Positions 1,666 to 57,172 of a stretch of 64,000 nucleotides of DNA are shown here, piece by piece. Under the pieces are notes generated by a model. The model was not told the origin of the DNA. It did no database searches and saw nothing but the letters and a program-made list of their open reading frames with translations. The stretch lies in IMG/VR virus record IMGVR_UViG_3300034091_000309; one strand, written 5' to 3'. Source of the DNA: a virus. Lineage: Duplodnaviria; Heunggongvirae; Uroviricota; Caudoviricetes. Every line of letters begins with the position of its first letter. Position 1 is the first letter of the stretch. Made by a program: the position numbers and the translations under genes.

Positions 1666-2094
1666 ATGCACGACATTAAGGAGATCCGCAGAAATCCGGA
1701 AGAGTACAAACGCCGCTTAGCCAGACGAATGGGCGCGGAGGAAGCGGCCGAGATGATGGACGAGATTCTTCGGCTGGATGCGAAGGTTCGCAAACGGGAT
1801 GCGGAGACGCAGGAAGTGCGCACCGAGCAGAATCGCGTCAGCAAAGAAATCGGAGATCTGAAACGCAAGGGCGGCGATACTAGGGAACTGGAAAGGTACG
1901 CTGCGGCTTTGAAAAAGCTATACGTTTTGGCGGAGTACGGGAGACTCGAAGAGTTTCTCTCCGAATGCAAAGCGGAAATCGGCGGAACGGCCAGCATTGC
2001 AAAAAGATGGAAGAGATGGATGTGCCGCTTGGTGGCAAGATGCAAGCGGCTAAAGATCGGGCGCGGATGGGCAGCGCGTGGCTCACCAGCGTGA
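1666..2094 (+). CDS. seryl-tRNA synthetase N-terminal coiled-coil (tRNA-binding arm) fragment; truncated serS-like protein or remnant
   Basis: Residues 1-95 (MHDIKEIRRNPEEYKRRLARRMG...NRVSKEIGDLKRKGGDTRELE...) align to the SerRS N-terminal arm; no class-II catalytic core follows. Confidence 0.5.
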   Translation: MHDIKEIRRNPEEYKRRLARRMGAEEAAEMMDEILRLDAKVRKRDAETQEVRTEQNRVSKEIGDLKRKGGDTRELERYAAALKKLYVLAEYGRLEEFLSECKAEIGGTASIAKRWKRWMCRLVARCKRLKIGRGWAARGSPA

Positions 2095-2412: not shown

Positions 2413-2486
2413 GGGGGCGTAGCTCAGTTTGGGAGAGCGTCTGCTTTGCAAGCAGAGGGTCGCGGGTTCGATGCCTGCCGCCTCCA
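2413..2486 (+). tRNA. tRNA-Ala(TGC)
   Basis: Canonical cloverleaf: acceptor gggggcg/cgcctcc with G3:U70, D-arm gctcagtttgggagagc, anticodon loop ttTGCaa, CCA encoded. Confidence 0.8.
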
Positions 2487-2546
2487 CCACGATAGTGAAC
2501 AGTTATCAGCGGACAGCTTACAATTGAAAGGCTCGATCAACAATTT

Positions 2547-3077: not shown

Positions 3078-3151
3078 CGGAGAGTGGCCAAGTGGGGAAG
3101 GCCCCGGTTTCGGGAACCGGAAATGCGTGAGTTCGAGCCTCACCTCTCCGA
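3078..3151 (+). tRNA. tRNA-Pro(CGG)
   Basis: Acceptor strands cggagag/ctctccg pair, the D-arm is ggccaagtggggaaggcc, the anticodon loop is ttCGGga, the T-arm is gtgag-ttcgagc-ctcac, and CCA is encoded. Confidence 0.7.
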
Positions 3152-3202
3152 CCAGATTTTTAGTAAGGAGGATGCCATGTCACAGCGGGAAGCGCACAAG
3201 AG

Positions 3203-4096
3203 GTGATCGACGAGATCACCTCTATCATCGAAGACTTCGGCTTAAAGCCAGAGTTCAGAACTAATGTGATTCCACCCGAGGATGATGTCTCGACGTTGTT
3301 CGTCATTGCCGGGATGCAACCGCTGAAACATCGGTTTGCGTCGTCGGATGGTTGCCAGTACGCGAGTTTTCAATCCTGCATACGAACCAATGATCTAAAT
3401 CAAGTCGGCGATGGAATGCACCTGACCAGCTTTACGATGGTCGGTACCTTCGGTTTTGGGAGCCGGAATTATGAAGAGCATTGCGCTCTTTGGGATCGGG
3501 TCGTCAGGCGGTTGGGAATAAGAGTTGATGTTCTCAGATTTCATCCCGACTCAAGCCACCAAGAGATCTGGAATCATCTCGGATACAAAACCGAAGCGGA
3601 CACGAATTGTGTCTGGAGGGCCAGCGAATCGGATGAGGACAGCTACTGCTCGGAGATGTTTGTCGGCGACGTGGAGATCGGGAACCTAGTGAATCCAGGG
3701 CACCATTCGGTCGATGTCGGTTTTGGTTTGGAACGGCTGGTGGCGCTGGTCGAGGGTGTTTCGACGGTGGATGCATCCACGTTGTTCGACCAGCGGTTAC
3801 CGCCAGTAGCGCGGGACCACAAGCGGACGCTGGAGTTGTTGTACGCCAATGGAATACGGCCGGGGAACAAGGGCCGGCAGTACGTCTGTCGCCGATTGCT
3901 GCGCAGACTGATTCGGGAGGCTGGGAATTTTCGGGATTTCAACTTTGCGGAGATGCTGGAGGAGGAGATACGATTTTTCAACCAGCGGCTTTCCATTGCC
4001 CGGCGTGCCTGGAGGAGACAGCAGCACCAGGACGCATCCTTCTGGTGGGAGACTCACGGGATACTGCCGGAGGAGATGGATTTGGTAAAAAACTGA
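3203..4096 (+). CDS. alanyl-tRNA synthetase catalytic-domain homolog (minimal AlaRS-like, 297 aa; no tRNA-recognition, editing or C-Ala domains)
   Basis: Class-II AlaRS motifs are present: TLFVIAGMQPLK, SCIRTNDLNQVGDGMHLTSFTMVGTFGFG, GFGLERLVALVEG, RRLLRRLIREAG. The GTG start overlaps the stop of a 9-codon uORF that has a strong RBS. Confidence 0.6.
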   Translation: MIDEITSIIEDFGLKPEFRTNVIPPEDDVSTLFVIAGMQPLKHRFASSDGCQYASFQSCIRTNDLNQVGDGMHLTSFTMVGTFGFGSRNYEEHCALWDRVVRRLGIRVDVLRFHPDSSHQEIWNHLGYKTEADTNCVWRASESDEDSYCSEMFVGDVEIGNLVNPGHHSVDVGFGLERLVALVEGVSTVDASTLFDQRLPPVARDHKRTLELLYANGIRPGNKGRQYVCRRLLRRLIREAGNFRDFNFAEMLEEEIRFFNQRLSIARRAWRRQQHQDASFWWETHGILPEEMDLVKN

Positions 4097-6902: not shown

Positions 6903-7034
6903 CGGGCTGGTGTAGTTCCGGTTACTTCGCCTCGTAAGCGGGAGGCCGCGGGTTCGAGTCCCGCCATCGTAGCAATACGATGTAGCTCAGTTGGTTAGAG
7001 CGCCTACGTTACCGAAACGCCTGTTCCGCCCGAT
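6903..7034 (+). ncRNA. YrlA-like Y RNA with tRNA-like module (T-arm, loop-closed acceptor-like hairpin, D-arm)
   Basis: The T-arm gccgcgggttcgagtcccgcc is followed by hairpin atcgta-gcaa-tacgat and then D-arm gtagctcagttggttagagc; the terminal stem is cgggctgg.../cgcctgttccgcccg. Confidence 0.55.
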
Positions 7035-7041
7035 CAAACGA

Positions 7042-7068
7042 GAGCCCGGCCGAGGCCGGGCTCTTTTA
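7042..7068 (+). terminator. rho-independent terminator after the Y-RNA array
   Basis: The hairpin gcccggccgaggccgggc is followed by tctttt. Confidence 0.6.
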
Positions 7069-7080
7069 TTGGAGGTAAGT

Positions 7081-8526
7081 ATGCGGACCAATGTAGCAGT
7101 GAAGACGCCGGCGCCCCGGACGCATGAGGGCGCTGTGGCAGCGAGAATCAACCCGGTCGAGCAGTTGCGCCGTTCGGTGATGGCCAACATGCTTTGGGAG
7201 GACGAGTTCTACGAGGAGGGCCAGTCGATCGCCAAGCGCATCCAGGAGACGGTGGCCGAGATTCTCAAGCAGAAGAACGGTCCCCAGACCGTCGCCGACA
7301 TCGCCTACGAGGCGCGCACCCAGATGAAGCTGCGTCATGTGCCGCTGCTGCTGGTGGCGGCGCTGATCCATGCCAATACCAAGGAAATCCGCGCCCTGGT
7401 GGCCGGCACCATCGCCCGCGTCATCCAGCGGCCGGACGAGATGGGTGAGCTGATCTCGCTTTATTGGAATGCAAACAAGCAGAACGACGGTTCTTCAGTA
7501 ATCCAGTCGCGCAAGATGCTGCCCAGTCAGGTGAAGAAGGGCTTGGGAGAGGCCTTCCGCAAGTTCGATGCCTATGCGCTGGGCAAGTACAACTCCGACG
7601 CTGCGGCGGTGAAGCTGCGCGATGTGCTGTTTCTGGCTCATGTGAAGCCCTTGACCGAGGAGCAGGTTGTGCTGTGGAAGAAGCTGACGGAGAAGACTCT
7701 GGAGTCCCCGGACACCTGGGAGGTGGCGCTGAGCGGCGGCGCGGACAAGAAGGAGACCTTCACGCGCCTGTTGAACGAGGAGAAGCTGGGGGCGCTGGCC
7801 CTGCTGCGCAACCTGCGCAACATGCAGCAGGCAGGCGTGGACGAGAGCCTGATCCGCGAGGGGCTGGGCAAGATGAAGACGGAGCGGGTGCTGCCCTTCC
7901 GCTTTATCTCGGCGGCCAAGTATGCTCCACAGTTGGAACCCCAACTTGAAGAGACTATGTTTCGGTGCCTTGCGGCTCAGGAGAAGTTGAGCGGTAAGTC
8001 GATTCTCATTGTTGACTGCTCTGGTTCGATGCACGGACCGATCTCTGGGAAGTCGGAATTGGATCGTCTCAGCGCGGCAGCAGCTTTGGCAATGCTCTTG
8101 CGTGAAGTATGCGAAGAGGTAGCCGTGTACGCTACTGCCGGGGACGACTTGCGCCGAACTCATGCCACGATTCTGATTCCCCCACGGCGCGGATTCGGTC
8201 TGCGGGATTTGCTCTCTTATGAACGCACATCCGGCAAGATCGGCGGTGGCGGAATCTTTTTGAAGGAGGTGATCGAGTATGTTCGCAAGGAAGAGAAGGG
8301 CAAGGCCGACAGGATCATTGTCATTACTGATGAGCAGGACTGTGATTTGGTGAACAAGCCTGCCAGCGCAAAGCCGTTCGGAAAGAACAACTATCTCATC
8401 AACGTCGCCAGCTTCAAAAACGGCATCGGCTATGGGGACTGGGTTCACATCGACGGATGGTCTGAGGCAATCGTGGACTACATCGAGCGCTTCGAGCAGC
8501 TTGACACGGCTGGGGAAGCGGCGTAA
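7081..8526 (+). CDS. rsr: Ro60/Rsr-like ribonucleoprotein (TROVE domain plus C-terminal vWA domain with MIDAS DxSxS)
   Basis: RBS ggagg lies 5 nt upstream; the MIDAS motif reads IVDCSGSMHG; the domain order TROVE+vWA matches Ro60; a Y-RNA-like array lies immediately upstream. Confidence 0.55.
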   Translation: MRTNVAVKTPAPRTHEGAVAARINPVEQLRRSVMANMLWEDEFYEEGQSIAKRIQETVAEILKQKNGPQTVADIAYEARTQMKLRHVPLLLVAALIHANTKEIRALVAGTIARVIQRPDEMGELISLYWNANKQNDGSSVIQSRKMLPSQVKKGLGEAFRKFDAYALGKYNSDAAAVKLRDVLFLAHVKPLTEEQVVLWKKLTEKTLESPDTWEVALSGGADKKETFTRLLNEEKLGALALLRNLRNMQQAGVDESLIREGLGKMKTERVLPFRFISAAKYAPQLEPQLEETMFRCLAAQEKLSGKSILIVDCSGSMHGPISGKSELDRLSAAAALAMLLREVCEEVAVYATAGDDLRRTHATILIPPRRGFGLRDLLSYERTSGKIGGGGIFLKEVIEYVRKEEKGKADRIIVITDEQDCDLVNKPASAKPFGKNNYLINVASFKNGIGYGDWVHIDGWSEAIVDYIERFEQLDTAGEAA

Positions 8527-20337: not shown

Positions 20338-20590
20338 TGGTTCCCGTTTGGGCATGGTGGCATTTTTGGTGGCATATTGACCAAAAGACCCGCAAACACC
20401 ATATATTTCAATAACATATAAATCCCTGGGGGGCAGCCAAGGACTACTACTTTTCTCGACCTGTTACCACCCATCTCGACTCAATGACCCCCTTTGAAAC
20501 CCAATAACCATGGGCTTTCCCGCATCTCAATCTTGTTCAGGACGTGCGGGGAGACACGAGGCGATTTTTCCGCAAACAGCTATTTACTGG

Positions 20591-20675
20591 TGCTATTTTT
20601 TGGCGTACTATCGAAAAATAGCACCACGGCTGGTGGTGCTATTTCAAGGGGAAGAGAAAAATAGCACCACCGAGG
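20591..20675 (+). repeat. three copies of AAAATAGCACCAC (one inverted) upstream of the integrase; candidate arm-type or operator sites
   Basis: The repeats read tggtgctatttt / aaaatagcaccacggctggtggtgctattt / aaaatagcaccac. Confidence 0.5.
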
Positions 20676-20683
20676 AGAAGACG

Positions 20684-21934
20684 ATGGCAGCCAACCGAGA
20701 ACTGACCAACCTGCATTGCGCCAAGGCCGCGCCCGGCGCCAAACCCTACCGCCTCGCCGACAAGGGAGGCCTCTACCTGCTGGTCACCCCGGCCGGGGGA
20801 ACACTGTGGCGCTGGAAGTACCGCTTCGAGGGTAAGCAAAAACAGATGGCCCTGGGCAAGTACCCCGATGTGTCGCTGGCGCAGGCGCGGCTGCTGCACG
20901 CCGAGGCGCGGGTTAAACTGGCCAGCGGCATCGACCCCATGAGCCAGCGCAAAGAAGAGAAGCTGGCCATCCGGGTCAGCCGCGCCGGGAAAGAAAAGCG
21001 GAGGGCGCTCACCTTTGAAAAATTGGTGCGCATGTGGTATGCCGAGAAATGGCGCAGGGGCAAGAACCCGCGCTATGCCGCCAATGTGCAAAGACGGCTG
21101 GAAACCGATGTCATCGCCCGGCTGGGCCGCAAAGACGCCGCCGCGATCACATCGGCGGATGTGGTGGAACTCACCAAAGCCGTGGATGGCCGGGGGGCCC
21201 GCGACATCGCCAAGCGCAACCTGCAGTTCATCCGCAAGATCTACAGATGGGGAAAGACCAACAACTATTTGGCCAGGGATGTAGTGAACCCGGCGGCGGA
21301 GATCGATATGCAGGATATTCTCTCCAACCACACCCCGGTCAAGTTCGCCCATCTGACCATCGCCGAGGTGCCGGAGCTGCTGCGCCGGATGCAGGACTAC
21401 AGCGGCAATGTGCTGACGCGGATAGCCATGGAGCTGATCGCCTTGACCTTCGTGCGCACCGGAGAGCTGATCGCCGCGGAGTGGAAGGAGATCGACTGGA
21501 AGAACCGCCAGTGGCATCTTCCCGCCCAACACATGAAGATGAAGCTGCCACACATCGTCCCGCTCTCCCGCCAGGCGATCACGCTGCTTCAACGGCTCCG
21601 CGCCATCAGCGAAAGGACGGGAAGACTCTTCCCCGATTACAACGGCGGGGCGGGCACGATGAGCAACAACACCATCCTCAAGGGGATGGAGCGGATGGGC
21701 TACAAGGGGCGCATGACCGGACACGGCTGGAGACACATCGCCAGCACCTACCTGCGCGGCCGGGGCTACGACAAATACTGGGTGGAGATGCAACTGGCCC
21801 ACAGGGAAGGCGGAGTTGCGGGGATCTACAACGAGGCGGAGTATCTGAAGCAGCGCACAGGAATGATGCAAGCCTGGGCCGACGCCCTGGACGAGATGCG
21901 CGTCGCCGGCGCCGGCAGTCTGCGCGCGGCGTGA
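20684..21934 (+). CDS. int: P4-like tyrosine integrase
   Basis: N-terminal arm-binding domain KPYRLADKGGLYLLVTPAGGTLWRWKYRFEGKQKQMALGKYPDVSLAQAR plus a C-terminal catalytic domain. Confidence 0.8.
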   Translation: MAANRELTNLHCAKAAPGAKPYRLADKGGLYLLVTPAGGTLWRWKYRFEGKQKQMALGKYPDVSLAQARLLHAEARVKLASGIDPMSQRKEEKLAIRVSRAGKEKRRALTFEKLVRMWYAEKWRRGKNPRYAANVQRRLETDVIARLGRKDAAAITSADVVELTKAVDGRGARDIAKRNLQFIRKIYRWGKTNNYLARDVVNPAAEIDMQDILSNHTPVKFAHLTIAEVPELLRRMQDYSGNVLTRIAMELIALTFVRTGELIAAEWKEIDWKNRQWHLPAQHMKMKLPHIVPLSRQAITLLQRLRAISERTGRLFPDYNGGAGTMSNNTILKGMERMGYKGRMTGHGWRHIASTYLRGRGYDKYWVEMQLAHREGGVAGIYNEAEYLKQRTGMMQAWADALDEMRVAGAGSLRAA

Positions 21935-22588: not shown

Positions 22589-23995
22589 GTGATTTCTGCT
22601 CGCGCTTTTTATAACGAGATCGACCCGCTCAAGGCCGAGATCCTGCGGGAGGTCATCAAGGCGGGCGCCATCGCGCCGGGGGATGTGGATGAACGATCAA
22701 TTGCAGATGTTCAACCCGGAGACCTCGCTGGATACACTCAAGCGCACTGGTTCGCTGGAGGAGGATTTTGGAGTCTTGCCCTCCGCCAAGCCGGCTGGCC
22801 CGACGAGCGCGAGGTCTGGACGGGAAGCTGCCCCTGCCCCAGCTTTAGCGCGGCGGGCAAAAGAGCGGGGTTTGACGATCCTCGCCACCTCTGGCCTGCT
22901 TGGGCGCGACTCATCCGCGAGTGCAGACCTCCAACAATCTTTGGAGAGCAGGTTGCTGCCGCGATTGGACATGGCTGGCTCGACCTTGTTTGCACAGACC
23001 TGGAGGCGGAAGGCTACGCCGTTGCGGCGGCGGTACTGGGAGCACACAGCGTCGGCGCTCCGCACATCCGGCAGCGGCTGTACTTCGTGGCCGGAGTCGG
23101 ATGCTTGCAGACGAGGCGGCGAATATGCGGACCCGGAGAAGGCTGCACTGCGGCGGGAACAGGGCCATCAGGTGAACCTCTCGGAGTCGGCGCAGATGGC
23201 GGTTTGGACGACGCCCCAGGCGCACGATGCGACGGGACGCTCGAAGGGTCAGAAGGCGATTCACGGGACGAAACACGGCTGCGCGGACCTGGTAGCGGAT
23301 GCGGCTCTGGCGGCTTGGGCGACGCCAGCCGAGCGGGACTGGAAGGACACGCCGGGGATGGCCGAGACGGGAACCAATCCAGACGGCTCAGAGAGAACGC
23401 GGCTGGATATGTTGCCGAGACAGGCGCATCTGGCATGCTGGCCGACGCCGCAGACAGCAGACGACAACCTGAGCCGGATGAAAGATCCGCAAGCCTACGC
23501 AGAGTGGAACCAGGGGCGACCGAACGCAGGGTCCAATCTGGCGACCTATGCGCAGAACCTGGCGAGCTGGCCCAGCCCCTGCACGCCGAGCGGCGGCCGT
23601 TCCGTCTCGACGGAGAAGATGGACGCGACGGGGCGGACGGAGGACGGCCGGAAACACGCGGCGACGCTGGAACATGCGATGAAGTTCGCGGGGTGGACGA
23701 CTCCGAGCCATACGGATTCCGAGCGAGGCGGGACGATGACCCCGGCCATGTCAGGATCATCACTCGTTCAGTTAGCGTCGGAAGTCCGCCCGTGCGGCCA
23801 GCGCCGCTTAACGGCTGGTGGGCGGATGCTGACTGGATCGGATGCCGGGATGGAAAGTTCCGGCCAGTTGAACCCGGAACATTCCCTTTGGCTACAGGGT
23901 ATCCCTGCCGTGTGGGTCTCCTTCGCCTTGCGGGCGATGCAATCTGTGTCCCGGCGGCGCAAGCGTTCATCGAAGCGTACTTAGAGACAGTGTGA
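22589..23995 (+). CDS. dcm: DNA (cytosine-5)-methyltransferase with apparent double frameshift (N- and C-terminal motifs in one frame, W-x-T-P repeat target-recognition region in +1 frame)
   Basis: Motif I is FAGGGF, the PC motif is CPCPSFSAAGKR, motif VIII is HIRQRLYFV, and motif X is GDAICVPAAQAFIEAY, all in frame A. The middle region WTTPQAHD/WATPAERD/WPTPQTADD/WTTPSHTD lies in frame +1 (ORF 22683..23984). Confidence 0.55.
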   Translation: MISARAFYNEIDPLKAEILREVIKAGAIAPGDVDERSIADVQPGDLAGYTQAHWFAGGGFWSLALRQAGWPDEREVWTGSCPCPSFSAAGKRAGFDDPRHLWPAWARLIRECRPPTIFGEQVAAAIGHGWLDLVCTDLEAEGYAVAAAVLGAHSVGAPHIRQRLYFVAGVGCLQTRRRICGPGEGCTAAGTGPSGEPLGVGADGGLDDAPGARCDGTLEGSEGDSRDETRLRGPGSGCGSGGLGDASRAGLEGHAGDGRDGNQSRRLRENAAGYVAETGASGMLADAADSRRQPEPDERSASLRRVEPGATERRVQSGDLCAEPGELAQPLHAERRPFRLDGEDGRDGADGGRPETRGDAGTCDEVRGVDDSEPYGFRARRDDDPGHVRIITRSVSVGSPPVRPAPLNGWWADADWIGCRDGKFRPVEPGTFPLATGYPCRVGLLRLAGDAICVPAAQAFIEAYLETV

Positions 23996-27016: not shown

Positions 27017-28807
27017 GTGAGTTACCGGGTCTTGGAGGGAGACGTGATGGAGGTACTGAAGACACTGCCGGATGAGTCGGTGCAGTGCTGCATCACTTCG
27101 CCCCCCTATTTTGGACTCCGCGATTATCAGATTCCGCCCAGCGTGTGGCCGAAACCCAGTAGTCAGTTGTCAAAGATCAGTTGTCAGCATGAGTGGATCA
27201 CCGAAGAGGTGGAGCGGGAGATGCGGCGCGGGCTGGGACTGAAAGACTCGCCGGCCAGCACACGTGGCGGGGCGATCAAATGCGCCGAGGTGGAGACGCA
27301 GCGCTTCGAGCGGGGCTTCTGCCGGCATTGCGGAGCCTGGAAAGGCTGTCTGGGGTTAGAACCCACGCCGGAGCTGTACGTGGCGCACATGGTGGAGGTC
27401 TTCCGCGAAGCACGGCGGGTGCTGCGGTCGGACGGCACATTGTGGCTGAACTTGGGGGATTGCTACGCGAACGATGGCAAATGGGGCGGCGAGACCGGCG
27501 GGAAGCAAGCCTATCTCGACGACGACAATCGCAAGCGTGTCGGCCGTGAAAAGCGGCTGACCGGGCTCAAGCCCAAGGACTTGGTGGGCATTCCCTGGAT
27601 GCTGGCCTTCGCGCTGCGCGCCGATGGCTGGTGGCTGCGCTCCGAGATCATTTGGTTTAAGCCGAATCCATTCCCCGAGAGCGTGACGGACCGGCCGACA
27701 AAAGCGCATGAGCAACTTTTCCTGCTGACCAAGAGCGCACGGTATTTTTACGACGCCGAGGCGATCAAGGAGCCGGGGGTGATGAAGCCGCAGGCCCGGC
27801 TTACGCCGCGGGATTTTGTGAACGGCAAAGACGCAGGGCGGCGGGCTGACCGGAGGCCGAATTATCGTCTGCGCGAAGCGGCCGAGCAAGAGAACGCGAT
27901 GCGCAACAAGCGCGATGTGTGGACGATTGCCGACGAGTCACCCCAACGATATGGACCTATCGTTGGGGACCCCGACGATACTCCACCAGCTCAAGGGAAG
28001 TGGTCCGGTGAAAACCCGCAAGCAGCAAGCCGGCGGATGACGGACAATGTGCGGGCTGCGAGAGCTGCGGGCGGAGCGCACGACAATCCCTTTTCACCCC
28101 ACGGACGTGGACCTGTCGTTGGGGACCCCGATTTCAGCACTGGCAGCAAGCATGGCCGCGGTATGACGCCACGGCACACACCGTATACGACGAGTTGCGA
28201 CCAATCGGGTCTGGATTCTGTTGAGCGCGGCGCCGGCCGCAACAAGAGAAGCGTGTGGGAGATTGCCACGCAGCCTTGGCCGCAGGCGCACTTCGCCACC
28301 TTCCCCGAAAAACTTGTTGAGCCCTGCATTCTGGCCGGCACCAGCGAGAGAGGCTGCTGTCCGCAGTGCGGCGCACCGTGGAGGCGGCCAACTTTCCGAG
28401 CCTGTAAAGAGTGTGGAGAGCCAATCCCGACGCAGGCCGACGAATGCGGCAACTGTGGTCACGTCAACGACTGGAAGAAAGGCCGCGTTGTCTCGGCGGA
28501 GATGCTGGCCACAGACTTTCATACGCCTGGACGCAGTGTGCCCCGCTACCCCGGCGGATTCGAGAACAAGACGCAGAGCGGTGATTGGCAGCCGACCTGC
28601 TCTTGCGGCGCGGAAGTTCCGGTGCCCTGCACGGTGCTGGACTGCTTCTGCGGTTCGGGGAGTTGCGGCGTGGTGGCGCTGCGCTATGGCCGGGATTTCA
28701 TTGGCATCGAATTGAATCCCCAGTATGCGGAGATGGCGAGAAGGCGCATTGAAGGCGATGCGCCGTTGTTTAATACGCCATCCGGAGGGGAGAGCGATGC
28801 TGCTTAA
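27017..28807 (+). CDS. DNA methyltransferase (N6-adenine or N4-cytosine; SPPY and FCGSGS motifs) with zinc ribbons and two in-frame RPE insertions
   Basis: Motif IV reads SPPYF and motif I reads LDCFCGSGS; in-frame RPE copies lie at 27939-27975 and 28095-28131. Confidence 0.65.
   Translation: MSYRVLEGDVMEVLKTLPDESVQCCITSPPYFGLRDYQIPPSVWPKPSSQLSKISCQHEWITEEVEREMRRGLGLKDSPASTRGGAIKCAEVETQRFERGFCRHCGAWKGCLGLEPTPELYVAHMVEVFREARRVLRSDGTLWLNLGDCYANDGKWGGETGGKQAYLDDDNRKRVGREKRLTGLKPKDLVGIPWMLAFALRADGWWLRSEIIWFKPNPFPESVTDRPTKAHEQLFLLTKSARYFYDAEAIKEPGVMKPQARLTPRDFVNGKDAGRRADRRPNYRLREAAEQENAMRNKRDVWTIADESPQRYGPIVGDPDDTPPAQGKWSGENPQAASRRMTDNVRAARAAGGAHDNPFSPHGRGPVVGDPDFSTGSKHGRGMTPRHTPYTTSCDQSGLDSVERGAGRNKRSVWEIATQPWPQAHFATFPEKLVEPCILAGTSERGCCPQCGAPWRRPTFRACKECGEPIPTQADECGNCGHVNDWKKGRVVSAEMLATDFHTPGRSVPRYPGGFENKTQSGDWQPTCSCGAEVPVPCTVLDCFCGSGSCGVVALRYGRDFIGIELNPQYAEMARRRIEGDAPLFNTPSGGESDAA
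27939..27975 (+). repeat. RPE-like palindromic element copy in-frame in the MTase (encodes SPQRYGPIVGDP)
   Basis: The sequence reads caccccaacgatatggacctatcgttggggaccccga. Confidence 0.75.
28095..28131 (+). repeat. RPE-like palindromic element copy in-frame in the MTase (encodes SPHGRGPVVGDP)
   Basis: The sequence reads caccccacggacgtggacctgtcgttggggaccccga. Confidence 0.75.
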
Positions 28808-55588: not shown

Positions 55589-57172
55589 ATGGTGCGGATT
55601 TTGGAGGGCGACGCGCGGGAGGTGCTACGGAGGCTGGCGGAATCTTCTGTGGATGCGATCGTGACCGATCCCCCCTATGAGTTAGGCTTCATGGGCAAGG
55701 TATGGGACAAAAGCGGAATCGCTTACTCTGTCCCGATATGGGCCGAAGCTCTGCGGGTACTCAAGCCGGGTGGGCATCTGCTGGCCTTTGGCGGGAGCCG
55801 CACCTATCACCGGCTGGTCTGCGCCATCGAGGATGCGGGCTTTGAAATCCGCGACCAGATTATGTGGATTTATGGGAGCGGGTTTCCGAAGAGTCTGGAC
55901 GTGAGCAAGGCAATCGACAAGGCGGCGCGAGGCGTTCCGCAGGGCGGGGCTGATCCGACCAGCGCGAACCACGGAAAGTTCAAAGGCGGTTGTTCCGAAA
56001 AGAATCCATCGGGGCGAGGCTTCGGTGCCGGGCCGGGGCAGTTCATGCGCGAGAAAGTTAAACGGGTTCGCTTTGACGGAAAACCCACGCGTAGTAGTGG
56101 TGGAACTTTTATGAGCGGCTGTGATGTTTCTATACAAAGCGGACCGCCAATCACCGAAGCGGCGAAGCAGTGGTCTGGCTGGGGGACGGCGCTCAAACCC
56201 GCGCATGAGCCGATTGTGGTGGCGCGCAAGCCGCTGGTGGGGACCGTGGCGGCGAATGTGCTGCAGCACGGGACCGGAGCACTGAATATCGACGGGTGCC
56301 GGGTTTCTGGAGAATTGCCGCACCACAATTACGGGCGAACCAGCGGCGAGAGGTCGTTTGTCGGAGAGAGCAGTAGACCGTACAACACCCCGGAACTGGG
56401 CCGCTGGCCGGCCAACGTCATCCACGATGGCTCGGAGGAGGTGGTGAGCTGCTTCCCGAACGCGCCGGGCCAATGCGGGGCGGTACGGCCAGATAGCGGT
56501 AGCGGTCAGAAGACAGATGGTATTTATGGAAGGTTTGCGACGAATAGCGACCATGACCCGCGCGGCGATTCCGGCTCGGCGGCGCGCTTCTTCTATAAGG
56601 TAGAACCTGATAGCGGAGATAGCGGGGTTAGCCAGTTAGCAAATCAGCGGGTGGGTGAACCGAGCGCGGAGCGGACTTACGAGGAGCGGGGCGGCACCAG
56701 TTTCACCCTGAAGCCGGGGGCGCGGCGCTTCGACATGGGATCGCCGGCGCGGTTCTTTTACTGCGCCAAGGCCGACCGGGAGGAGCGCAACCGGGGATGC
56801 GAGGAGCTGGGCAAGAAACCTCTGCTCTGGTCCGCCGGCACACAGTCGCCGGGAACCTTTCAGCGTGAGGGAGTCGACCGCAGCGCACAGAACAACCATC
56901 CCACGGTCAAGCCGGTGGCCCTGATGGCGTATTTATGCCGGCTGGTCACGCCGCCCGGCGGCACAGTGCTGGATTGCTTCATGGGCTCGGGGTCGACGGG
57001 GATCGCGGCGCTGCGGGAGGGCTTTCACTTCATCGGCATCGAGGTGAATCCCGCCTATGCGGAGATCGCGCGGCGGCGCATTGCGGGGGATGCGCCGCTT
57101 CTGAACCAAGCAACAGAGAAGGGAGAGACAAGCGATGAAGATGGCGCGCAAGCATATTCTGGCGGCGATTGA
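55589..57172 (+). CDS. DNA methyltransferase (N6-adenine or N4-cytosine; DPPY and FMGSGS motifs)
   Basis: Motif IV reads TDPPYE and motif I reads LDCFMGSGSTG. Confidence 0.65.
   Translation: MVRILEGDAREVLRRLAESSVDAIVTDPPYELGFMGKVWDKSGIAYSVPIWAEALRVLKPGGHLLAFGGSRTYHRLVCAIEDAGFEIRDQIMWIYGSGFPKSLDVSKAIDKAARGVPQGGADPTSANHGKFKGGCSEKNPSGRGFGAGPGQFMREKVKRVRFDGKPTRSSGGTFMSGCDVSIQSGPPITEAAKQWSGWGTALKPAHEPIVVARKPLVGTVAANVLQHGTGALNIDGCRVSGELPHHNYGRTSGERSFVGESSRPYNTPELGRWPANVIHDGSEEVVSCFPNAPGQCGAVRPDSGSGQKTDGIYGRFATNSDHDPRGDSGSAARFFYKVEPDSGDSGVSQLANQRVGEPSAERTYEERGGTSFTLKPGARRFDMGSPARFFYCAKADREERNRGCEELGKKPLLWSAGTQSPGTFQREGVDRSAQNNHPTVKPVALMAYLCRLVTPPGGTVLDCFMGSGSTGIAALREGFHFIGIEVNPAYAEIARRRIAGDAPLLNQATEKGETSDEDGAQAYSGGD

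What the first reader, a model, noticed from the sequence alone, without database searches (positions are those of the whole stretch)
3175..4096. Minimal alanyl-tRNA-synthetase catalytic-domain homolog next to tRNA-Ala, with a 9-codon uORF whose stop overlaps the GTG start
The 297-aa ORF carries the class-II AlaRS aminoacylation-domain signature blocks TLFVIAGMQPLK, SCIRTNDLNQVGDGMH-LTSFTMVGTFGFG, GFGLERLVALVEG and RRLLRRLIREAG. It stops before the tRNA-recognition, editing and C-Ala domains. A perfect RBS (taaggagga) drives a 9-codon ORF, MSQREAHKR, whose TGA overlaps the GTG start (gGTGAtc). That arrangement is typical of translational coupling or a regulatory leader peptide. A free-standing AlaRS catalytic core in a phage tRNA island is unusual. 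It could aminoacylate a non-canonical substrate, for example a tRNA-like RNA such as the YrlA-like unit 3 kb downstream, or act as a decoy.
Basis: partly seen in the sequence, partly recalled or inferred. Interest (0 to 1): 0.7.

Follow-up and report, generated by a model that had tools for sequence, protein, structure and literature searches.

The report
Frameshift-gated miniature phage alanyl-tRNA synthetase
A phage-like element encodes a roughly 300-residue alanyl-tRNA synthetase, far smaller than any studied, and its family appears to be made only when ribosomes slip back one base at an alanine codon in a tiny leader, which probably lets the gene sense shortage of its own product.

Summary
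The ORF (3203-4096, +) and the 9-codon leader (3177-3206) are both real. The protein is an AlaRS homolog (Pfam PF01411, E 1.2e-25) with the alanine/ATP pocket intact. It is not a bare catalytic core. A confident AF2 model superposes on the whole AlaRS aminoacylation fragment, so it also has a shrunken tRNA-recognition domain.

The main finding concerns the leader. In 73 of 85 non-redundant family loci, an SD+ATG lies in the +1 register of the AlaRS frame and opens a 4-11-codon ORF. That ORF contains X XYZ GCN: the base before the P-site codon equals its first base, and an Ala codon follows. A hairpin starts 4-6 nt downstream. Forty-nine loci have no usable in-frame start codon. X and X1 co-substitute about a dozen times.

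Best reading: a programmed -1 frameshift at G GAA GCG (3188-3194) yields a 306-aa product, MSQRE|SAQEV... The vacant Ala A-site probably acts as a sensor of Ala-tRNA(Ala), with logic like RF2. No published precedent was found. Everything here is comparative; nothing has been tested experimentally.

The parts
2413..2489 (+). tRNA-Ala(UGC), the likely cognate substrate. Its anticodon can read the GCG sensor codon.
   Evidence: ARAGORN and Rfam. The sequence shows G3:U70 and A73.
3078..3154 (+). tRNA-Pro(CGG), immediately upstream. The gene is probably co-transcribed with the tRNA array.
   Evidence: No + strand promoter-like or terminator-like site lies between it and the gene. The gap to the ATG is 22 nt.
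3164..3172 (+). Shine-Dalgarno sequence TAAGGAGGA for the leader ATG.
   Evidence: Read from the sequence. GGAGG-type SDs are conserved 5-8 nt before the ATG across the family.
3177..3206 (+). Leader ORF (0 frame), MSQREAHKR*. Its first 5 codons would become the N-terminus of the trans-frame protein.
   Evidence: Homologous leaders M-x-x-x-x-A occur in 73 of 85 loci.
3185..3186 (+). Conserved G(-7) C(-6) relative to the Ala codon. Its function is unexplained. It forms a GCN triplet in the -1 frame.
   Evidence: G is 83% and C 95% conserved in 65 loci. C is invariant in the 61 loci with the ATG at -15.
3188..3194 (+). Proposed -1 shift site G GAA GCG. P-site tRNA-Glu slips from GAA to GGA while the Ala codon GCG waits in the A site.
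   Evidence: The X XYZ GCN pattern holds in 62 of 65 loci by the unbiased count and in 73 of 85 by the broader one. Other registers give 3 and 0; shuffles give a mean of 5.6. X and X1 co-substitute about 13 times on the tree.
3195..3198 (+). Spacer (CACA) between the A-site codon and the stimulatory hairpin.
   Evidence: The spacer is 4-7 nt in other loci with strong hairpins.
3199..3223 (+). Hairpin AGAGGTGATC-GACGA-GATCACCTCT, the putative frameshift stimulator.
   Evidence: Present in both the MFE and centroid folds. It is the most stable 45-nt stretch of the gene. The family-wide MFE minimum falls at +3 after the Ala codon. The P0002 loci show a compensatory G-C to A-U change.
3191..4096 (+). 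-1 frame coding sequence of the mini-AlaRS, from the first post-shift codon AGC to the stop TGA. The predicted product with the 5 leader residues is 306 aa: MSQRE|SAQEVIDEITS...
   Evidence: Coding periodicity in this frame starts right after the Ala codon. Product computed.
3203..3772 (+). Class II catalytic (aminoacylation) domain, residues 1-190 in GTG-start numbering. It holds motif 1 (TLFVIAGMQ), motif 2 (QSCIRTNDLNQVGDGMHLTSF) and motif 3 (SVDVGFGLER).
   Evidence: Pfam, PDB phmmer, hhalign at probability 100 and E 1.6e-42, residue mapping and family invariants.
3794..4093 (+). Compact helical domain, residues about 198-297, equivalent to the AlaRS tRNA-recognition domain. It carries PGNKGRQYVCRRLLRR and the C-terminal WWETHGILPEE.
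   Evidence: AF2 helices 201-296. Foldseek alignment spans nearly the whole N441 fragment. Sequence alignment reaches residue 240 only.

Best explanation
The locus encodes a miniaturised alanyl-tRNA synthetase of about 300 residues. It has the class II catalytic domain plus a shrunken tRNA-recognition domain, and no editing or C-Ala domains. It belongs to a family found in large phages.

Proposed expression mechanism:
1. Ribosomes start at ATG 3177, behind a strong SD, and translate five codons (MSQRE).
2. They arrive with tRNA-Glu on GAA (3189-3191) in the P site and the Ala codon GCG (3192-3194) in the A site. A 10-bp hairpin (3199-3223) sits at the mRNA entrance.
3. If Ala-tRNA(Ala) arrives promptly, the ribosome stays in frame and terminates after a 9-residue peptide.
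4. If the A site stays empty, the P-site tRNA slips back one base (GAA to GGA, allowed by the preceding G). Reading then continues in the -1 frame (AGC GCA CAA GAG GTG ...) to give a 306-aa enzyme.
5. Synthesis of the enzyme would therefore rise when its own product is scarce. This is the logic of RF2/prfB applied to a sense codon and an aaRS.

Shown by comparison: the conserved leader, its register, the X XYZ GCN site, the hairpin, the lack of in-frame starts, and the intact active-site residues.

Inferred: that slippage actually happens, that it responds to Ala-tRNA(Ala) levels, and that the enzyme charges tRNA-Ala.
For: Enzyme:
- PF01411 at E 1.2e-25. hhalign against a canonical AlaRS profile gives probability 100 and E 1.6e-42 over residues 4-240.
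- R61, W138, E151, E158, N161, V163, D171, G173 and R178 align to E. coli R69, W170, E183, E209, N212, V214, D235, G237 and R242. All are invariant or nearly so in 25 homologs.
- The AF2 model has pLDDT 89. Its best PDB matches are AlaRS aminoacylation fragments, spanning both domains.
- The family has several hundred members of about 260-340 aa at 45-55% identity, so it is under purifying selection.
- The window's tRNA-Ala has G3:U70 and A73.

Frameshift:
- 73 of 85 non-redundant loci have ATG(+1 register)...X XYZ GCN, against 3 and 0 in the other registers and a shuffle mean of 5.6 (max 11).
- 62 of 65 loci chosen only by SD+ATG satisfy X=X1, across 16 tetramers using all four bases.
- There are about 13 joint X/X1 substitutions on the protein tree.
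- 49 loci lack any usable in-frame ATG/GTG/TTG.
- Some loci have a main-frame stop 3 codons before the site. In others the leader stop lies downstream of conserved AlaRS-frame residues.
- Coding periodicity switches to the -1 frame right after the Ala codon.
- A hairpin lies 4-6 nt downstream: the MFE minimum is at +3, and 31.5% of loci fall in the top 5% of their own gene. 7 of 9 pairs covary, with 93.9% of cells paired against 80.4% in shuffles (0 of 500).
- L001 has a 1-nt insertion that puts its start in frame.
- In the closest relative the GTG is GTA, with a compensating stem change.
- GenBank huge phage LR745206.1, at 30% identity, has M K R L D A F*, the site G GAC GCA, and no in-frame start.

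Sensor:
- The A-site codon is always Ala (GCC 37, GCA 19, GCT 13, GCG 4). The -1 frame codon it overlaps encodes R, S, G or C.
- In-frame members have no conserved Ala at codon 6.
Against: - There is no experimental evidence of any kind.
- The site is not a classical X XXY YYZ heptamer. After slippage, only the first codon position is always re-paired. For example, GAC to GGA for tRNA-Asp leaves a mismatch at position 3.
- The window itself has a GTG in frame, 4 codons after the site and overlapping the leader's stop, so reinitiation cannot be excluded for this particular sequence. 24 of 73 loci have some in-frame start available.
- The conserved G-7/C-6 is not explained by the slip model.
- A strong downstream hairpin is present in only about a third to a half of loci.
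- The in-frame control group is AT-rich, so the hairpin comparison is confounded by composition.
- For the enzyme: the C-terminal 57 residues cannot be aligned by sequence, so the equivalent of the second G3:U70-reading residue (E. coli D400) is unproven.
- E. coli AlaRS fragments of this size are poor tRNA binders (PMC10036535).
- Whether the frameshift is regulated by charging or simply constitutive cannot be told from sequence.
Confidence: 0.7

Rival explanations
1. The 9-codon leader is translated, terminates at TGA 3204-3206, and the same ribosome restarts at the overlapping GTG 3203 to give a 297-aa protein. The leader only delivers ribosomes.
For: The GTGA overlap exists in the window, and a similar one in P0003. 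ATGA or TAATG overlaps with a true in-frame ATG occur in L023, L008, L034 and L062. 24 of 73 loci have some in-frame start available.
Against: 49 of 73 loci have no in-frame start. The 82%-identical relative has GTA at this codon. The GTG is the Val of a conserved (D/E)-V-(I/V) motif and lies inside a 10-bp stem. This model predicts neither X=X1, nor the invariant Ala codon, nor the covarying hairpin. In MTLRLALLK*-type leaders the stop lies downstream of conserved AlaRS-frame residues.
Confidence: 0.12
2. The -1 frameshift is real but constitutive. It acts as a fixed attenuator that keeps enzyme levels low. The Ala codon is conserved for a reason unrelated to sensing Ala-tRNA(Ala), for example the decoding kinetics of GCN, or a requirement for NGC as the first -1 frame codon.
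For: All the structural evidence for frameshifting applies equally. Nothing in the sequence data measures regulation. The GC dinucleotide is shared by the 0-frame Ala codon and the -1 frame NGC codon.
Against: The -1 frame codon encodes four unrelated amino acids (R, S, G, C) read by different tRNAs. The 0-frame reading is always Ala, with a free third base. The coincidence with the gene's own amino acid would be unexplained. Since tRNA-Ala cannot re-pair on NGC, the slip must occur with an empty A site, which makes it inherently sensitive to Ala-tRNA supply.
Confidence: 0.2
3. The mechanism is a backward hop rather than a slip. Peptidyl-tRNA-Ala on the 0-frame GCN detaches, often with a stop codon next in line, and re-pairs 7 nt upstream on the -1 frame GCN formed by G-7/C-6. 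It then resumes in the AlaRS frame.
For: It would explain the otherwise unexplained G-7/C-6, conserved at 83% and 95%. It fits the stop codon directly after Ala in 36 of 73 loci, and the hairpin just downstream.
Against: It does not explain X=X1, which holds in 72-73 of 74 loci. The MRRLA group and L023 and L029 lack a GCN landing triplet at -7 but keep X XYZ GCN. Half of the loci have no stop directly after Ala. To my knowledge, a 7-nt backward hop has no natural precedent. It would also give positive rather than homeostatic dependence on Ala-tRNA.
Confidence: 0.05
4. The protein is not a tRNA-charging enzyme. It would be an alanine-adenylating enzyme for another acceptor, or a tRNA-binding decoy.
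For: It lacks editing and C-Ala domains and is smaller than any AlaRS fragment known to aminoacylate: the Tupanvirus enzyme is 461 aa (PMC10036535), and from general knowledge of Schimmel's deletion work, the E. coli fragment needed is about 461 residues. The D400 equivalent is unproven.
Against: The helical tRNA-recognition domain is retained, with the invariant basic motif PGNKGRxYVCRRLLRR and the N303-equivalent Asn. The genes sit in tRNA islands, sometimes directly after tRNA-Ala genes, as in L010 and L072. The leader monitors an Ala codon on the ribosome, which only makes sense if the product feeds the Ala-tRNA(Ala) pool.
Confidence: 0.15
5. The apparent frameshift is an artefact: sequencing or assembly indels, or decaying pseudogenes.
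For: None beyond the bare fact of a frame discontinuity.
Against: The same register, site and leader recur in 73 independent assemblies from many studies and at 30-100% protein identity. The downstream ORF is intact and under purifying selection. The window's sequence is identical in a second record.
Confidence: 0.01

Closest known systems
Tupanvirus mini-AlaRS (TuAlaRS, 461 aa; Antika et al. 2023, PMC10036535)
   Same: Virus-encoded AlaRS reduced to the aminoacylation part, with no editing domain and no C-Ala. It is shown to charge tRNA-Ala through the acceptor stem.
   Different: TuAlaRS is a eukaryote-type enzyme of a giant virus and keeps full-size catalytic and tRNA-recognition domains. 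It lacks the N/D G3:U70-reading residues. The phage protein is bacterial-type and about 35% shorter (about 300 aa), with loops deleted and the helical domain halved. It keeps the N303-equivalent Asn. It is uncharacterised, and its gene is frameshift-gated.
prfB (release factor 2) autoregulatory +1 programmed frameshift
   Same: A short 5' reading frame ends unless the ribosome shifts frame. [quoted passage not shown]
   Different: RF2 uses a +1 shift on CUU UGA, with an internal SD 3 nt upstream and a stop codon read directly by the product. Here the shift is -1, the sensor is a sense (Ala) codon read by the product's product (Ala-tRNA), the stimulator is a downstream hairpin, and the shift occurs at codon 5-6.
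Classical bacterial -1 PRF cassettes (dnaX, IS911/IS3 transposases, phage tail chaperone G/GT)
   Same: A -1 shift, a 4-7 nt spacer and then a stem-loop. The arrangement is conserved across homologs.
   Different: Those use tandem-slippery X XXY YYZ sites and make two functional proteins sharing a long N-terminus. Here only the P-site tRNA can re-pair (X XYZ), the A-site codon is non-slippery, and the 0-frame product is a 4-11-residue peptide.
'Hungry codon' frameshifting (Gallant and colleagues) and Ty1 +1 PRF at a rare Arg codon
   Same: The P-site tRNA slips while the A site waits for a limiting aminoacyl-tRNA.
   Different: Hungry-codon -1 shifts are known as starvation-induced errors in E. 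coli. The 2016 review by Atkins et al. states that no natural example yielding a functional trans-frame protein was known (PMC5009743). Ty1 is +1 and senses tRNA abundance, not charging by the encoded enzyme.
Other aaRS feedback devices: pheST leader-peptide attenuation, thrS operator mimicry, T-box riboswitches, alaS transcriptional autorepression
   Same: Expression of a synthetase is coupled to the charging state or level of its cognate tRNA or amino acid. In attenuation, cognate codons in a short leader ORF act as the sensor.
   Different: There is no terminator or antiterminator, no T-box or other Rfam element, and only a single cognate codon. The read-out is a change of reading frame into the structural gene itself.

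Membership tests
Alanyl-tRNA synthetase (class IIc, Pfam PF01411 tRNA-synt_2c) | Significant sequence match to the AlaRS aminoacylation domain. | tested here: met
   PF01411 at E 1.2e-25, 90.5 bits against a cut-off of 30.3. hhalign against a canonical AlaRS profile gives probability 100 and E 1.6e-42. PDB AlaRS fragments match at E 1e-17.
Alanyl-tRNA synthetase (class IIc, Pfam PF01411 tRNA-synt_2c) | Class II motifs 1-3 and the alanine/ATP pocket residues (E. coli R69, W170, N212, V214, D235, G237, and the motif-3 Arg). | tested here: met
   R61, W138, N161, V163, D171, G173 and R178 align and are invariant or nearly so in 25 homologs. The missing GGKH loop is also absent from many full-length bacterial AlaRS.
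Alanyl-tRNA synthetase (class IIc, Pfam PF01411 tRNA-synt_2c) | A tRNA-recognition (helical) domain with the two G3:U70-reading residues (E. coli N303 and D400). | tested here: inconclusive
   The fold spans this domain, and N222 aligns with N303. The D400 region cannot be aligned by sequence. The resemblance of WWE-T-(F/H)-G to YD-T-Y-G is only a motif-level lead.
Alanyl-tRNA synthetase (class IIc, Pfam PF01411 tRNA-synt_2c) | Full-length equivalog architecture, with an editing domain and C-Ala. | tested here: not met
   TIGR00344 scores 87.7 bits against a cut-off of 457. The protein ends at residue 297. No AlaX-like editing domain is found anywhere in the window.
Alanyl-tRNA synthetase (class IIc, Pfam PF01411 tRNA-synt_2c) | Catalytic activity: Ala-AMP formation and charging of tRNA-Ala. 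| not testable with these tools
   This needs biochemistry.
Programmed -1 ribosomal frameshift cassette | The downstream ORF is in the -1 frame of an upstream initiated ORF, and it has no initiation signal of its own. | tested here: met
   The register is fixed in 73-74 of 85 loci. 49 loci have no usable in-frame start. The window itself does have a GTG, so this feature is met for the family and ambiguous for the window.
Programmed -1 ribosomal frameshift cassette | A shift site that allows tRNA re-pairing in the -1 frame, conserved across homologs. | tested here: met
   X XYZ with X=X1 holds in 62 of 65 loci and in 73 of 74, with about 13 co-substitutions. It is a single-tRNA (P-site) site, not the classical X XXY YYZ.
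Programmed -1 ribosomal frameshift cassette | A classical tandem slippery heptamer X XXY YYZ. | tested here: not met
   The A-site codon is GCN preceded by Z, and tRNA-Ala cannot re-pair on ZGC.
Programmed -1 ribosomal frameshift cassette | A stimulatory RNA structure 5-9 nt downstream, supported by covariation. | tested here: met
   The window hairpin is at 3199-3223, 4 nt after the A-site codon. The family MFE minimum is at +3. 7 of 9 pairs covary, and the controls are passed. A compensatory change is seen in the nearest relative. The structure is strong in only about a third to a half of loci.
Programmed -1 ribosomal frameshift cassette | A trans-frame protein is demonstrated. | not testable with these tools
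   This needs mass spectrometry or reporter assays.
RF2-type autoregulatory frameshift (A-site sensor of the gene's own activity) | The A-site codon at the shift site is one whose decoding depends on the encoded protein's activity. | tested here: met
   The A-site codon is Ala in every PRF-type locus of an AlaRS-like gene. It is absent at that position in in-frame members.
RF2-type autoregulatory frameshift (A-site sensor of the gene's own activity) | Frameshift efficiency varies inversely with product level. | not testable with these tools
   This needs titration of Ala-tRNA(Ala) in vitro or in vivo.
Translational coupling by termination-reinitiation | A start codon of the downstream gene overlaps or adjoins the upstream stop, conserved in homologs. 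| tested here: not met
   It is present in the window (GTGA) and a few loci, but absent in 49 of 73. The nearest relative has GTA.
Leader-peptide transcription attenuation | Several cognate codons in the leader, plus alternative terminator and antiterminator hairpins. | tested here: not met
   There is one Ala codon only, no terminator-like site, and no U-tract after the hairpin.

The most novel reading that the evidence does not exclude
The leader is a ribosome-borne sensor of tRNA-Ala charging, and would be the first natural case of 'hungry-codon' -1 frameshifting used to make a functional protein. It would give homeostatic control of the smallest natural alanyl-tRNA synthetase yet seen (about 300 aa), carried by large phages to secure Ala-tRNA(Ala) during infection.

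A more speculative extension concerns the unexplained G-7/C-6. After the slip, the E-site triplet would be a second Ala codon (GCN in the -1 frame). Deacylated tRNA-Ala bound there could stabilise the shifted frame, so the device would read both charged and uncharged tRNA-Ala.
Probability: 0.5. Interest if true: 0.92.

Novelty: new variant of a known kind. Interest (0 to 1): 0.85.

Why it matters
There are three reasons.

1. **A new kind of recoding.** It would add a sense-codon, aminoacyl-tRNA-sensing frameshift to the short list of autoregulatory recoding devices (RF2, antizyme). The field's main review notes that no natural use of hungry-codon frameshifting is known. The cassette is about 60 nt long, so it can be tested directly in reporters or a PURE system.

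2. **A new lower size limit for AlaRS.** A conserved, apparently functional AlaRS of about 300 residues is well below the 461-aa Tupanvirus enzyme and the roughly 461-residue E. coli fragment. That bears on how little protein is needed to read the G3:U70 operational code.

3. **Annotation errors.** Gene callers mis-annotate this family. They start at internal Met38, at chance GTGs, or read through upstream tRNA genes. Phage aaRS inventories and N-termini for this family are therefore wrong.

Tried and rejected
- **D400 region by sequence.** I ran hhalign of the family against the E. coli C-terminal fragment and against a canonical profile. Neither aligns past residue 240, so that membership item stays inconclusive.
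- **Known RNA elements.** An Rfam E-value scan of the leader region and a whole-window gathering scan found only tRNAs. There is no T-box, no known frameshift element and no YrlA.
- **Attenuation or a dedicated promoter.** The terminator/promoter scan found no terminator and no + strand promoter.
- **Free-standing editing domain.** tblastn of the E. coli AlaRS editing domain against the window gave only chance hits with E>1.
- **+1 frameshift from the ATG inside GGAGGATGC.** Rejected, because that ATG is not conserved: L006 and L007 read ATA there.
- **Translation of the AlaRS-frame 'GGCHVTAGR' upstream of the site.** Rejected. Several loci have a stop there. The resemblance to L001's N-terminus is explained by a 1-nt insertion in L001.
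- **Transcriptional slippage.** Rejected, because runs at the site are only 2-5 nt long.
- **+2 shift, A-site out-of-frame binding, or tandem slippage.** Rejected, because none of them predicts X=X1.
- **In-frame family members as a negative control for the hairpin.** The difference goes the expected way, but it is confounded by their low G+C.
- **Literature.** Searches for AlaRS plus frameshifting, hungry codon plus aaRS, and huge phages plus AlaRS found no description of this family or leader. The Mom/tRNA-dependent DNA modification paper was checked and is not relevant.
- **Script artefact.** In the broad script, three loci (L017, L026, L033) were assigned a spurious upstream site. Their true sites, also fit the pattern.
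Full report
**1. What is in the window**

The + strand carries a 297-codon ORF from GTG 3203 to TGA 4094-4096. Upstream lie TAAGGAGGA (3164-3172) and ATG 3177. The ATG opens MSQREAHKR*, whose TGA (3204-3206) overlaps the GTG. These parts of the observation are correct.

Two details are not:
- The adjacent gene is tRNA-Pro(CGG) at 3078-3154, 22 nt upstream of the ATG. tRNA-Ala(UGC) is at 2413-2489.
- The protein is not a bare catalytic core (section 2).

The window is part of a 134-kb JGI metagenome contig. It has 22 tRNA genes, a Ro60/TROVE-vWA gene, an HNH endonuclease, an ORF that is only a SerRS N-terminal domain, an integrase, DnaB-like helicase/primase matches and several DNA methyltransferases. 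It is therefore a large phage or phage-like element.

**2. The protein**

It matches Pfam tRNA-synt_2c at E 1.2e-25, but scores far below the full-length alaS equivalog cut-off, 87.7 against 457 bits.

A family profile aligns to canonical bacterial AlaRS with probability 100% and E 1.6e-42, covering residues 4-240 against E. coli 11-321. The alanine/ATP pocket is intact. R61, W138, E151, E158, N161, V163, D171, G173 and R178 correspond to E. coli R69, W170, E183, E209, N212, V214, D235, G237 and R242. All are invariant or nearly so in 25 homologs. The missing 'GGKH' in the motif-2 loop is also missing from many full-length AlaRS, so it is not a defect.

An AF2 model (pLDDT 89.2, pTM 0.85) finds AlaRS aminoacylation fragments as its best PDB matches. 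TMq is 0.75-0.78 over 390-409 columns of 420-441-residue targets. The protein is therefore a compacted version of both the catalytic and the helical tRNA-recognition domains. PGNKGRQYVCRRLLRR aligns with E. coli PSNENRGYVLRRIIRR, so N222 corresponds to N303. The last 57 residues cannot be placed by sequence, so the D400 equivalent is unproven.

There is no editing or C-Ala domain, and no AlaX-like ORF in the window.

**3. The family**

About 426 clusters at 90% identity, almost all 260-340 aa, are annotated if at all as 'alanyl-tRNA synthetase'. At 50% clustering, 25 clusters score E<=1e-30.

Members lie on viral contigs of 25-533 kb, on metagenome contigs up to 859 kb, and on contigs binned into MAGs, 11 of 13 of them Planctomycetota. 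Many sit in tRNA islands, and L010 and L072 lie directly after tRNA-Ala genes.

The smallest characterised natural AlaRS, from Tupanvirus, has 461 residues. Its authors call it the only natural aaRS consisting of the aminoacylation domain alone (PMC10036535).

**4.

Aligning homologs showed that some gene calls carry an in-frame N-terminal 'GG(C/S)(H/Y)VTAGR'. The window reads the same way upstream of its GTG. At the DNA level this is a conserved SD+ATG lying one base out of register with the AlaRS frame.

Across 85 non-redundant loci with enough upstream sequence:
- 73 have an ATG in the +1 register, so the AlaRS frame is the -1 frame of that ATG.
- This ATG opens a short ORF, usually 6-9 codons, with consensus M-x-x-x-x-A.
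- The ORF contains X XYZ GCN, with the AlaRS frame open from there onward.
- The same pattern occurs 3 and 0 times in the other two registers. In shuffled upstream regions the mean is 5.6 and the maximum 11.

Forty-nine of the 73 have no ATG/GTG/TTG at any usable position in the AlaRS frame. This explains why gene callers start some members at Met38, as in P0008, P0077, P0087 and P0101.

Several loci have an AlaRS-frame stop three codons before the site (L016, L042, L069, L083). In MTLRLALLK*-type leaders, the leader's stop lies downstream of conserved AlaRS-frame residues. The frame must therefore be entered inside the leader, not after it.

**5. The shift site**

In 65 loci chosen only for SD+ATG in the +1 register:
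- G+15 and C+16, the first two bases of leader codon 6 (Ala), are 89% and 95% conserved.
- The base before the preceding codon equals that codon's first base in 62 of 65. Two of the three exceptions fit if an earlier Ala codon in the leader is used.

X takes all four values across 16 tetramers, including GGAC, TTTA, AAAC, CCAA, CCTA, TTCG, CCTT, GGAA and AAAA. On a protein tree, X and X1 each change about 13 times, always together. The PRF set was defined with X=X1, but only L020 was excluded by that rule.

This is the signature of a single-tRNA -1 slip in the P site, from XYZ to XXY. tRNA-Ala cannot re-pair on ZGC, so the A site must be empty when the slip occurs.

The overlapping -1 frame codon is CGC, AGC, GGC or TGC, which encode four different amino acids. 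The 0-frame codon is always Ala, with a free third base. The conserved element is therefore the Ala codon.

Column entropy shows the normal coding periodicity in the AlaRS frame starting right after the Ala codon, and none before it.

**6. The stimulator**

A hairpin begins 4-7 nt after the Ala codon in many loci, with different stem sequences in different subgroups.
- Over 73 loci, the mean 45-nt folding energy has its minimum (-11.7 kcal/mol) at offset +3. The gene-wide mean is -8.7, and the flanks are -5 to -6.
- 31.5% of loci have this window among the most stable 5% of their own gene.
- In a 20-sequence subgroup, 7 of 9 stem pairs show double changes. 93.9% of cells pair, against 80.4% in shuffles (0 of 500 reach it) and 37-49% when the partner is slid.

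In the window the stem is AGAGGTGATC (3199-3208) / GATCACCTCT (3214-3223), 4 nt after GCG. It is present in both the MFE and centroid folds and is the most stable stretch of the gene.

**7. Tests at short and long evolutionary distance**

- A second record of the same contig is identical at the site.
- In the 82%-identical relative (L174-L177), the leader is MSQREARKR* and the site is G GAA GCA. The window's 'GTG start' is GTA there. The stem keeps pairing through G-C to A-U (AGAGGTAATC/GATTACCTCT).
- In the 68% relative, the site is G GAC GCT and the stem is retained. The long N-terminus of P0003 comes from reading through an upstream tRNA gene.
- L001 carries one extra base right after its start codon, which places the start in frame, so it needs no frameshift. 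Other in-frame members have no Ala at codon 6.
- The GenBank huge phage LR745206.1 (635 kb, 30% protein identity, AT-rich) has M K R L D A F*, the site G GAC GCA (record positions 367941-367947), G-7/C-6, and no in-frame start.

**8. Mechanism proposed for the window**

1. Initiation at ATG 3177, then MSQRE.
2. tRNA-Glu on GAA 3189-3191 sits in the P site and GCG 3192-3194 in the A site, with the hairpin at the mRNA entrance.
3. With ample Ala-tRNA(Ala), the ribosome decodes Ala and terminates at 3204-3206.
4. With a vacant A site, the tRNA slips from GAA to GGA (G-C, G.U, A-U pairing). It then reads AGC GCA CAA GAG GTG ATC..., giving a 306-aa product, MSQRE|SAQEVIDEITS....

The GTG is then simply the Val of the conserved (D/E)-V-(I/V) motif.

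Because the only way out of the leader is to slip while waiting for Ala-tRNA(Ala), enzyme output should rise when charging is low. This is RF2-like feedback. That part is inference. So is the activity of the enzyme, although the sensor logic is itself indirect evidence that the product is Ala-tRNA(Ala). The window's own tRNA-Ala has G3:U70 and A73 and can read GCG.

**9. What remains unexplained or weak**

- G-7/C-6 is nearly invariant, and the slip model does not predict it. It forms a -1 frame GCN triplet. A backward Ala-to-Ala hop would explain it, but would not explain X=X1, and it fails in loci that lack this triplet.
- Re-pairing after the slip is guaranteed only at the first codon position.
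- Strong hairpins are not universal.
- The window and 23 other loci do have an in-frame start available, so some reinitiation cannot be excluded there.
- The fixed 15-nt distance from the ATG to the Ala codon (61 of 73 loci) suggests that early-elongation or SD effects play a role, which I could not test.

**10. Comparison with what is known**

No Rfam family covers the leader, and there is no terminator.

Literature searches found no description of this family or of any aaRS gene gated by frameshifting. The 2016 review by Atkins et al. states that no natural example of hungry-codon frameshifting producing a functional trans-frame protein is known.

The device works like prfB autoregulation, but differs in direction (-1), in its sensor (a sense codon) and in its stimulator (a hairpin). 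It resembles dnaX- or IS-type cassettes in geometry, but not in the slippery site or the purpose. The enzyme is a member of the AlaRS catalytic family by sequence, fold and active site, but fails the full-length equivalog test.

**11. Verdict**

The finding is better described as a frameshift-gated miniature AlaRS.

My confidence in each step:
- About 0.85 that the family uses a programmed -1 frameshift.
- About 0.6 that the frameshift senses Ala-tRNA(Ala).
- About 0.7 that the enzyme charges tRNA-Ala.

It is a new variant of known kinds, with high interest because it can be tested directly.

Noticed in passing
window 1666-2094 (+): A 142-aa ORF consisting only of a seryl-tRNA synthetase N-terminal (tRNA-binding coiled-coil) domain (PF02403, E 3.5e-17). 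It lies between tRNA-His and tRNA-Ala, and is a second free-standing aaRS fragment in the same tRNA island.
   Followed up: partly
window 6991-8526 (+), with tRNA-Ser 6919-7015: A Ro60-like protein (TROVE plus vWA domains). Its mechanically called TTG start overlaps tRNA-Ser(CGA), so the true start is probably further downstream. No YrlA or Y-RNA family reaches the Rfam gathering score anywhere in the window.
   Followed up: partly
window 3185-3186, and position -7/-6 in 61-65 related loci: A near-invariant GC dinucleotide lies 7 nt upstream of the sensor Ala codon. It forms a GCN triplet in the -1 frame that would occupy the E site after the slip. The P-site slip model does not explain it.
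   Followed up: partly
L003 3988-4061; L003 4164-4450; L043 3330-3507: ARAGORN reports a tRNA with a two-base anticodon ('ca', so a shortened anticodon loop), and pairs of amber-suppressor tRNAs (anticodon CUA, labelled Pyl). They are about 2 kb upstream of the mini-AlaRS gene in large phage contigs. This hints at stop-codon recoding or unusual decoding in these phages.
   Followed up: no
L006 8994-9342: A phage-encoded tmRNA (tag peptide DKSYAFLG*) lies about 2 kb downstream of the mini-AlaRS gene. tmRNA is itself charged by AlaRS through a G3:U70 pair.
   Followed up: no
L010 4885-5718; L072 3784-3855: Three tRNA-Ala genes (UGC, GGC, CGC) lie directly upstream of the mini-AlaRS gene in L010, and one lies about 150 nt upstream in L072.
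   Followed up: partly
L004 / L043 (about 5990-6070 in L004): A 5'-truncated copy of the gene. The leader and first helix are replaced by unrelated sequence containing a GC-rich palindrome (GGGGTCGGCGGCCGCCGACCCC). A new in-frame ATG gives MTGLPFE...
   Followed up: no
P0003, P0008, P0077, P0087, P0101, P0044; L178-L180: Public gene calls for this family have wrong N-termini. Some start at internal Met38, some at chance GTGs, and some have long extensions that read through an upstream tRNA gene.
   Followed up: yes
window 20510-21934, 22589-23995, 27017-28807, 55589-57172: A tyrosine-integrase-like gene and at least three large DNA methyltransferase genes. The integrase suggests a temperate or integrative lifestyle for this tRNA-rich element.
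   Followed up: no
L001, L009, L012, L032, L072, L073, L077, L085: All family members with ordinary in-frame starts come from AT-rich contigs (20-37% G+C in the 5' region), while frameshift-type members average 50% G+C. However, the AT-rich LR745206.1 keeps the frameshift leader.
   Followed up: partly
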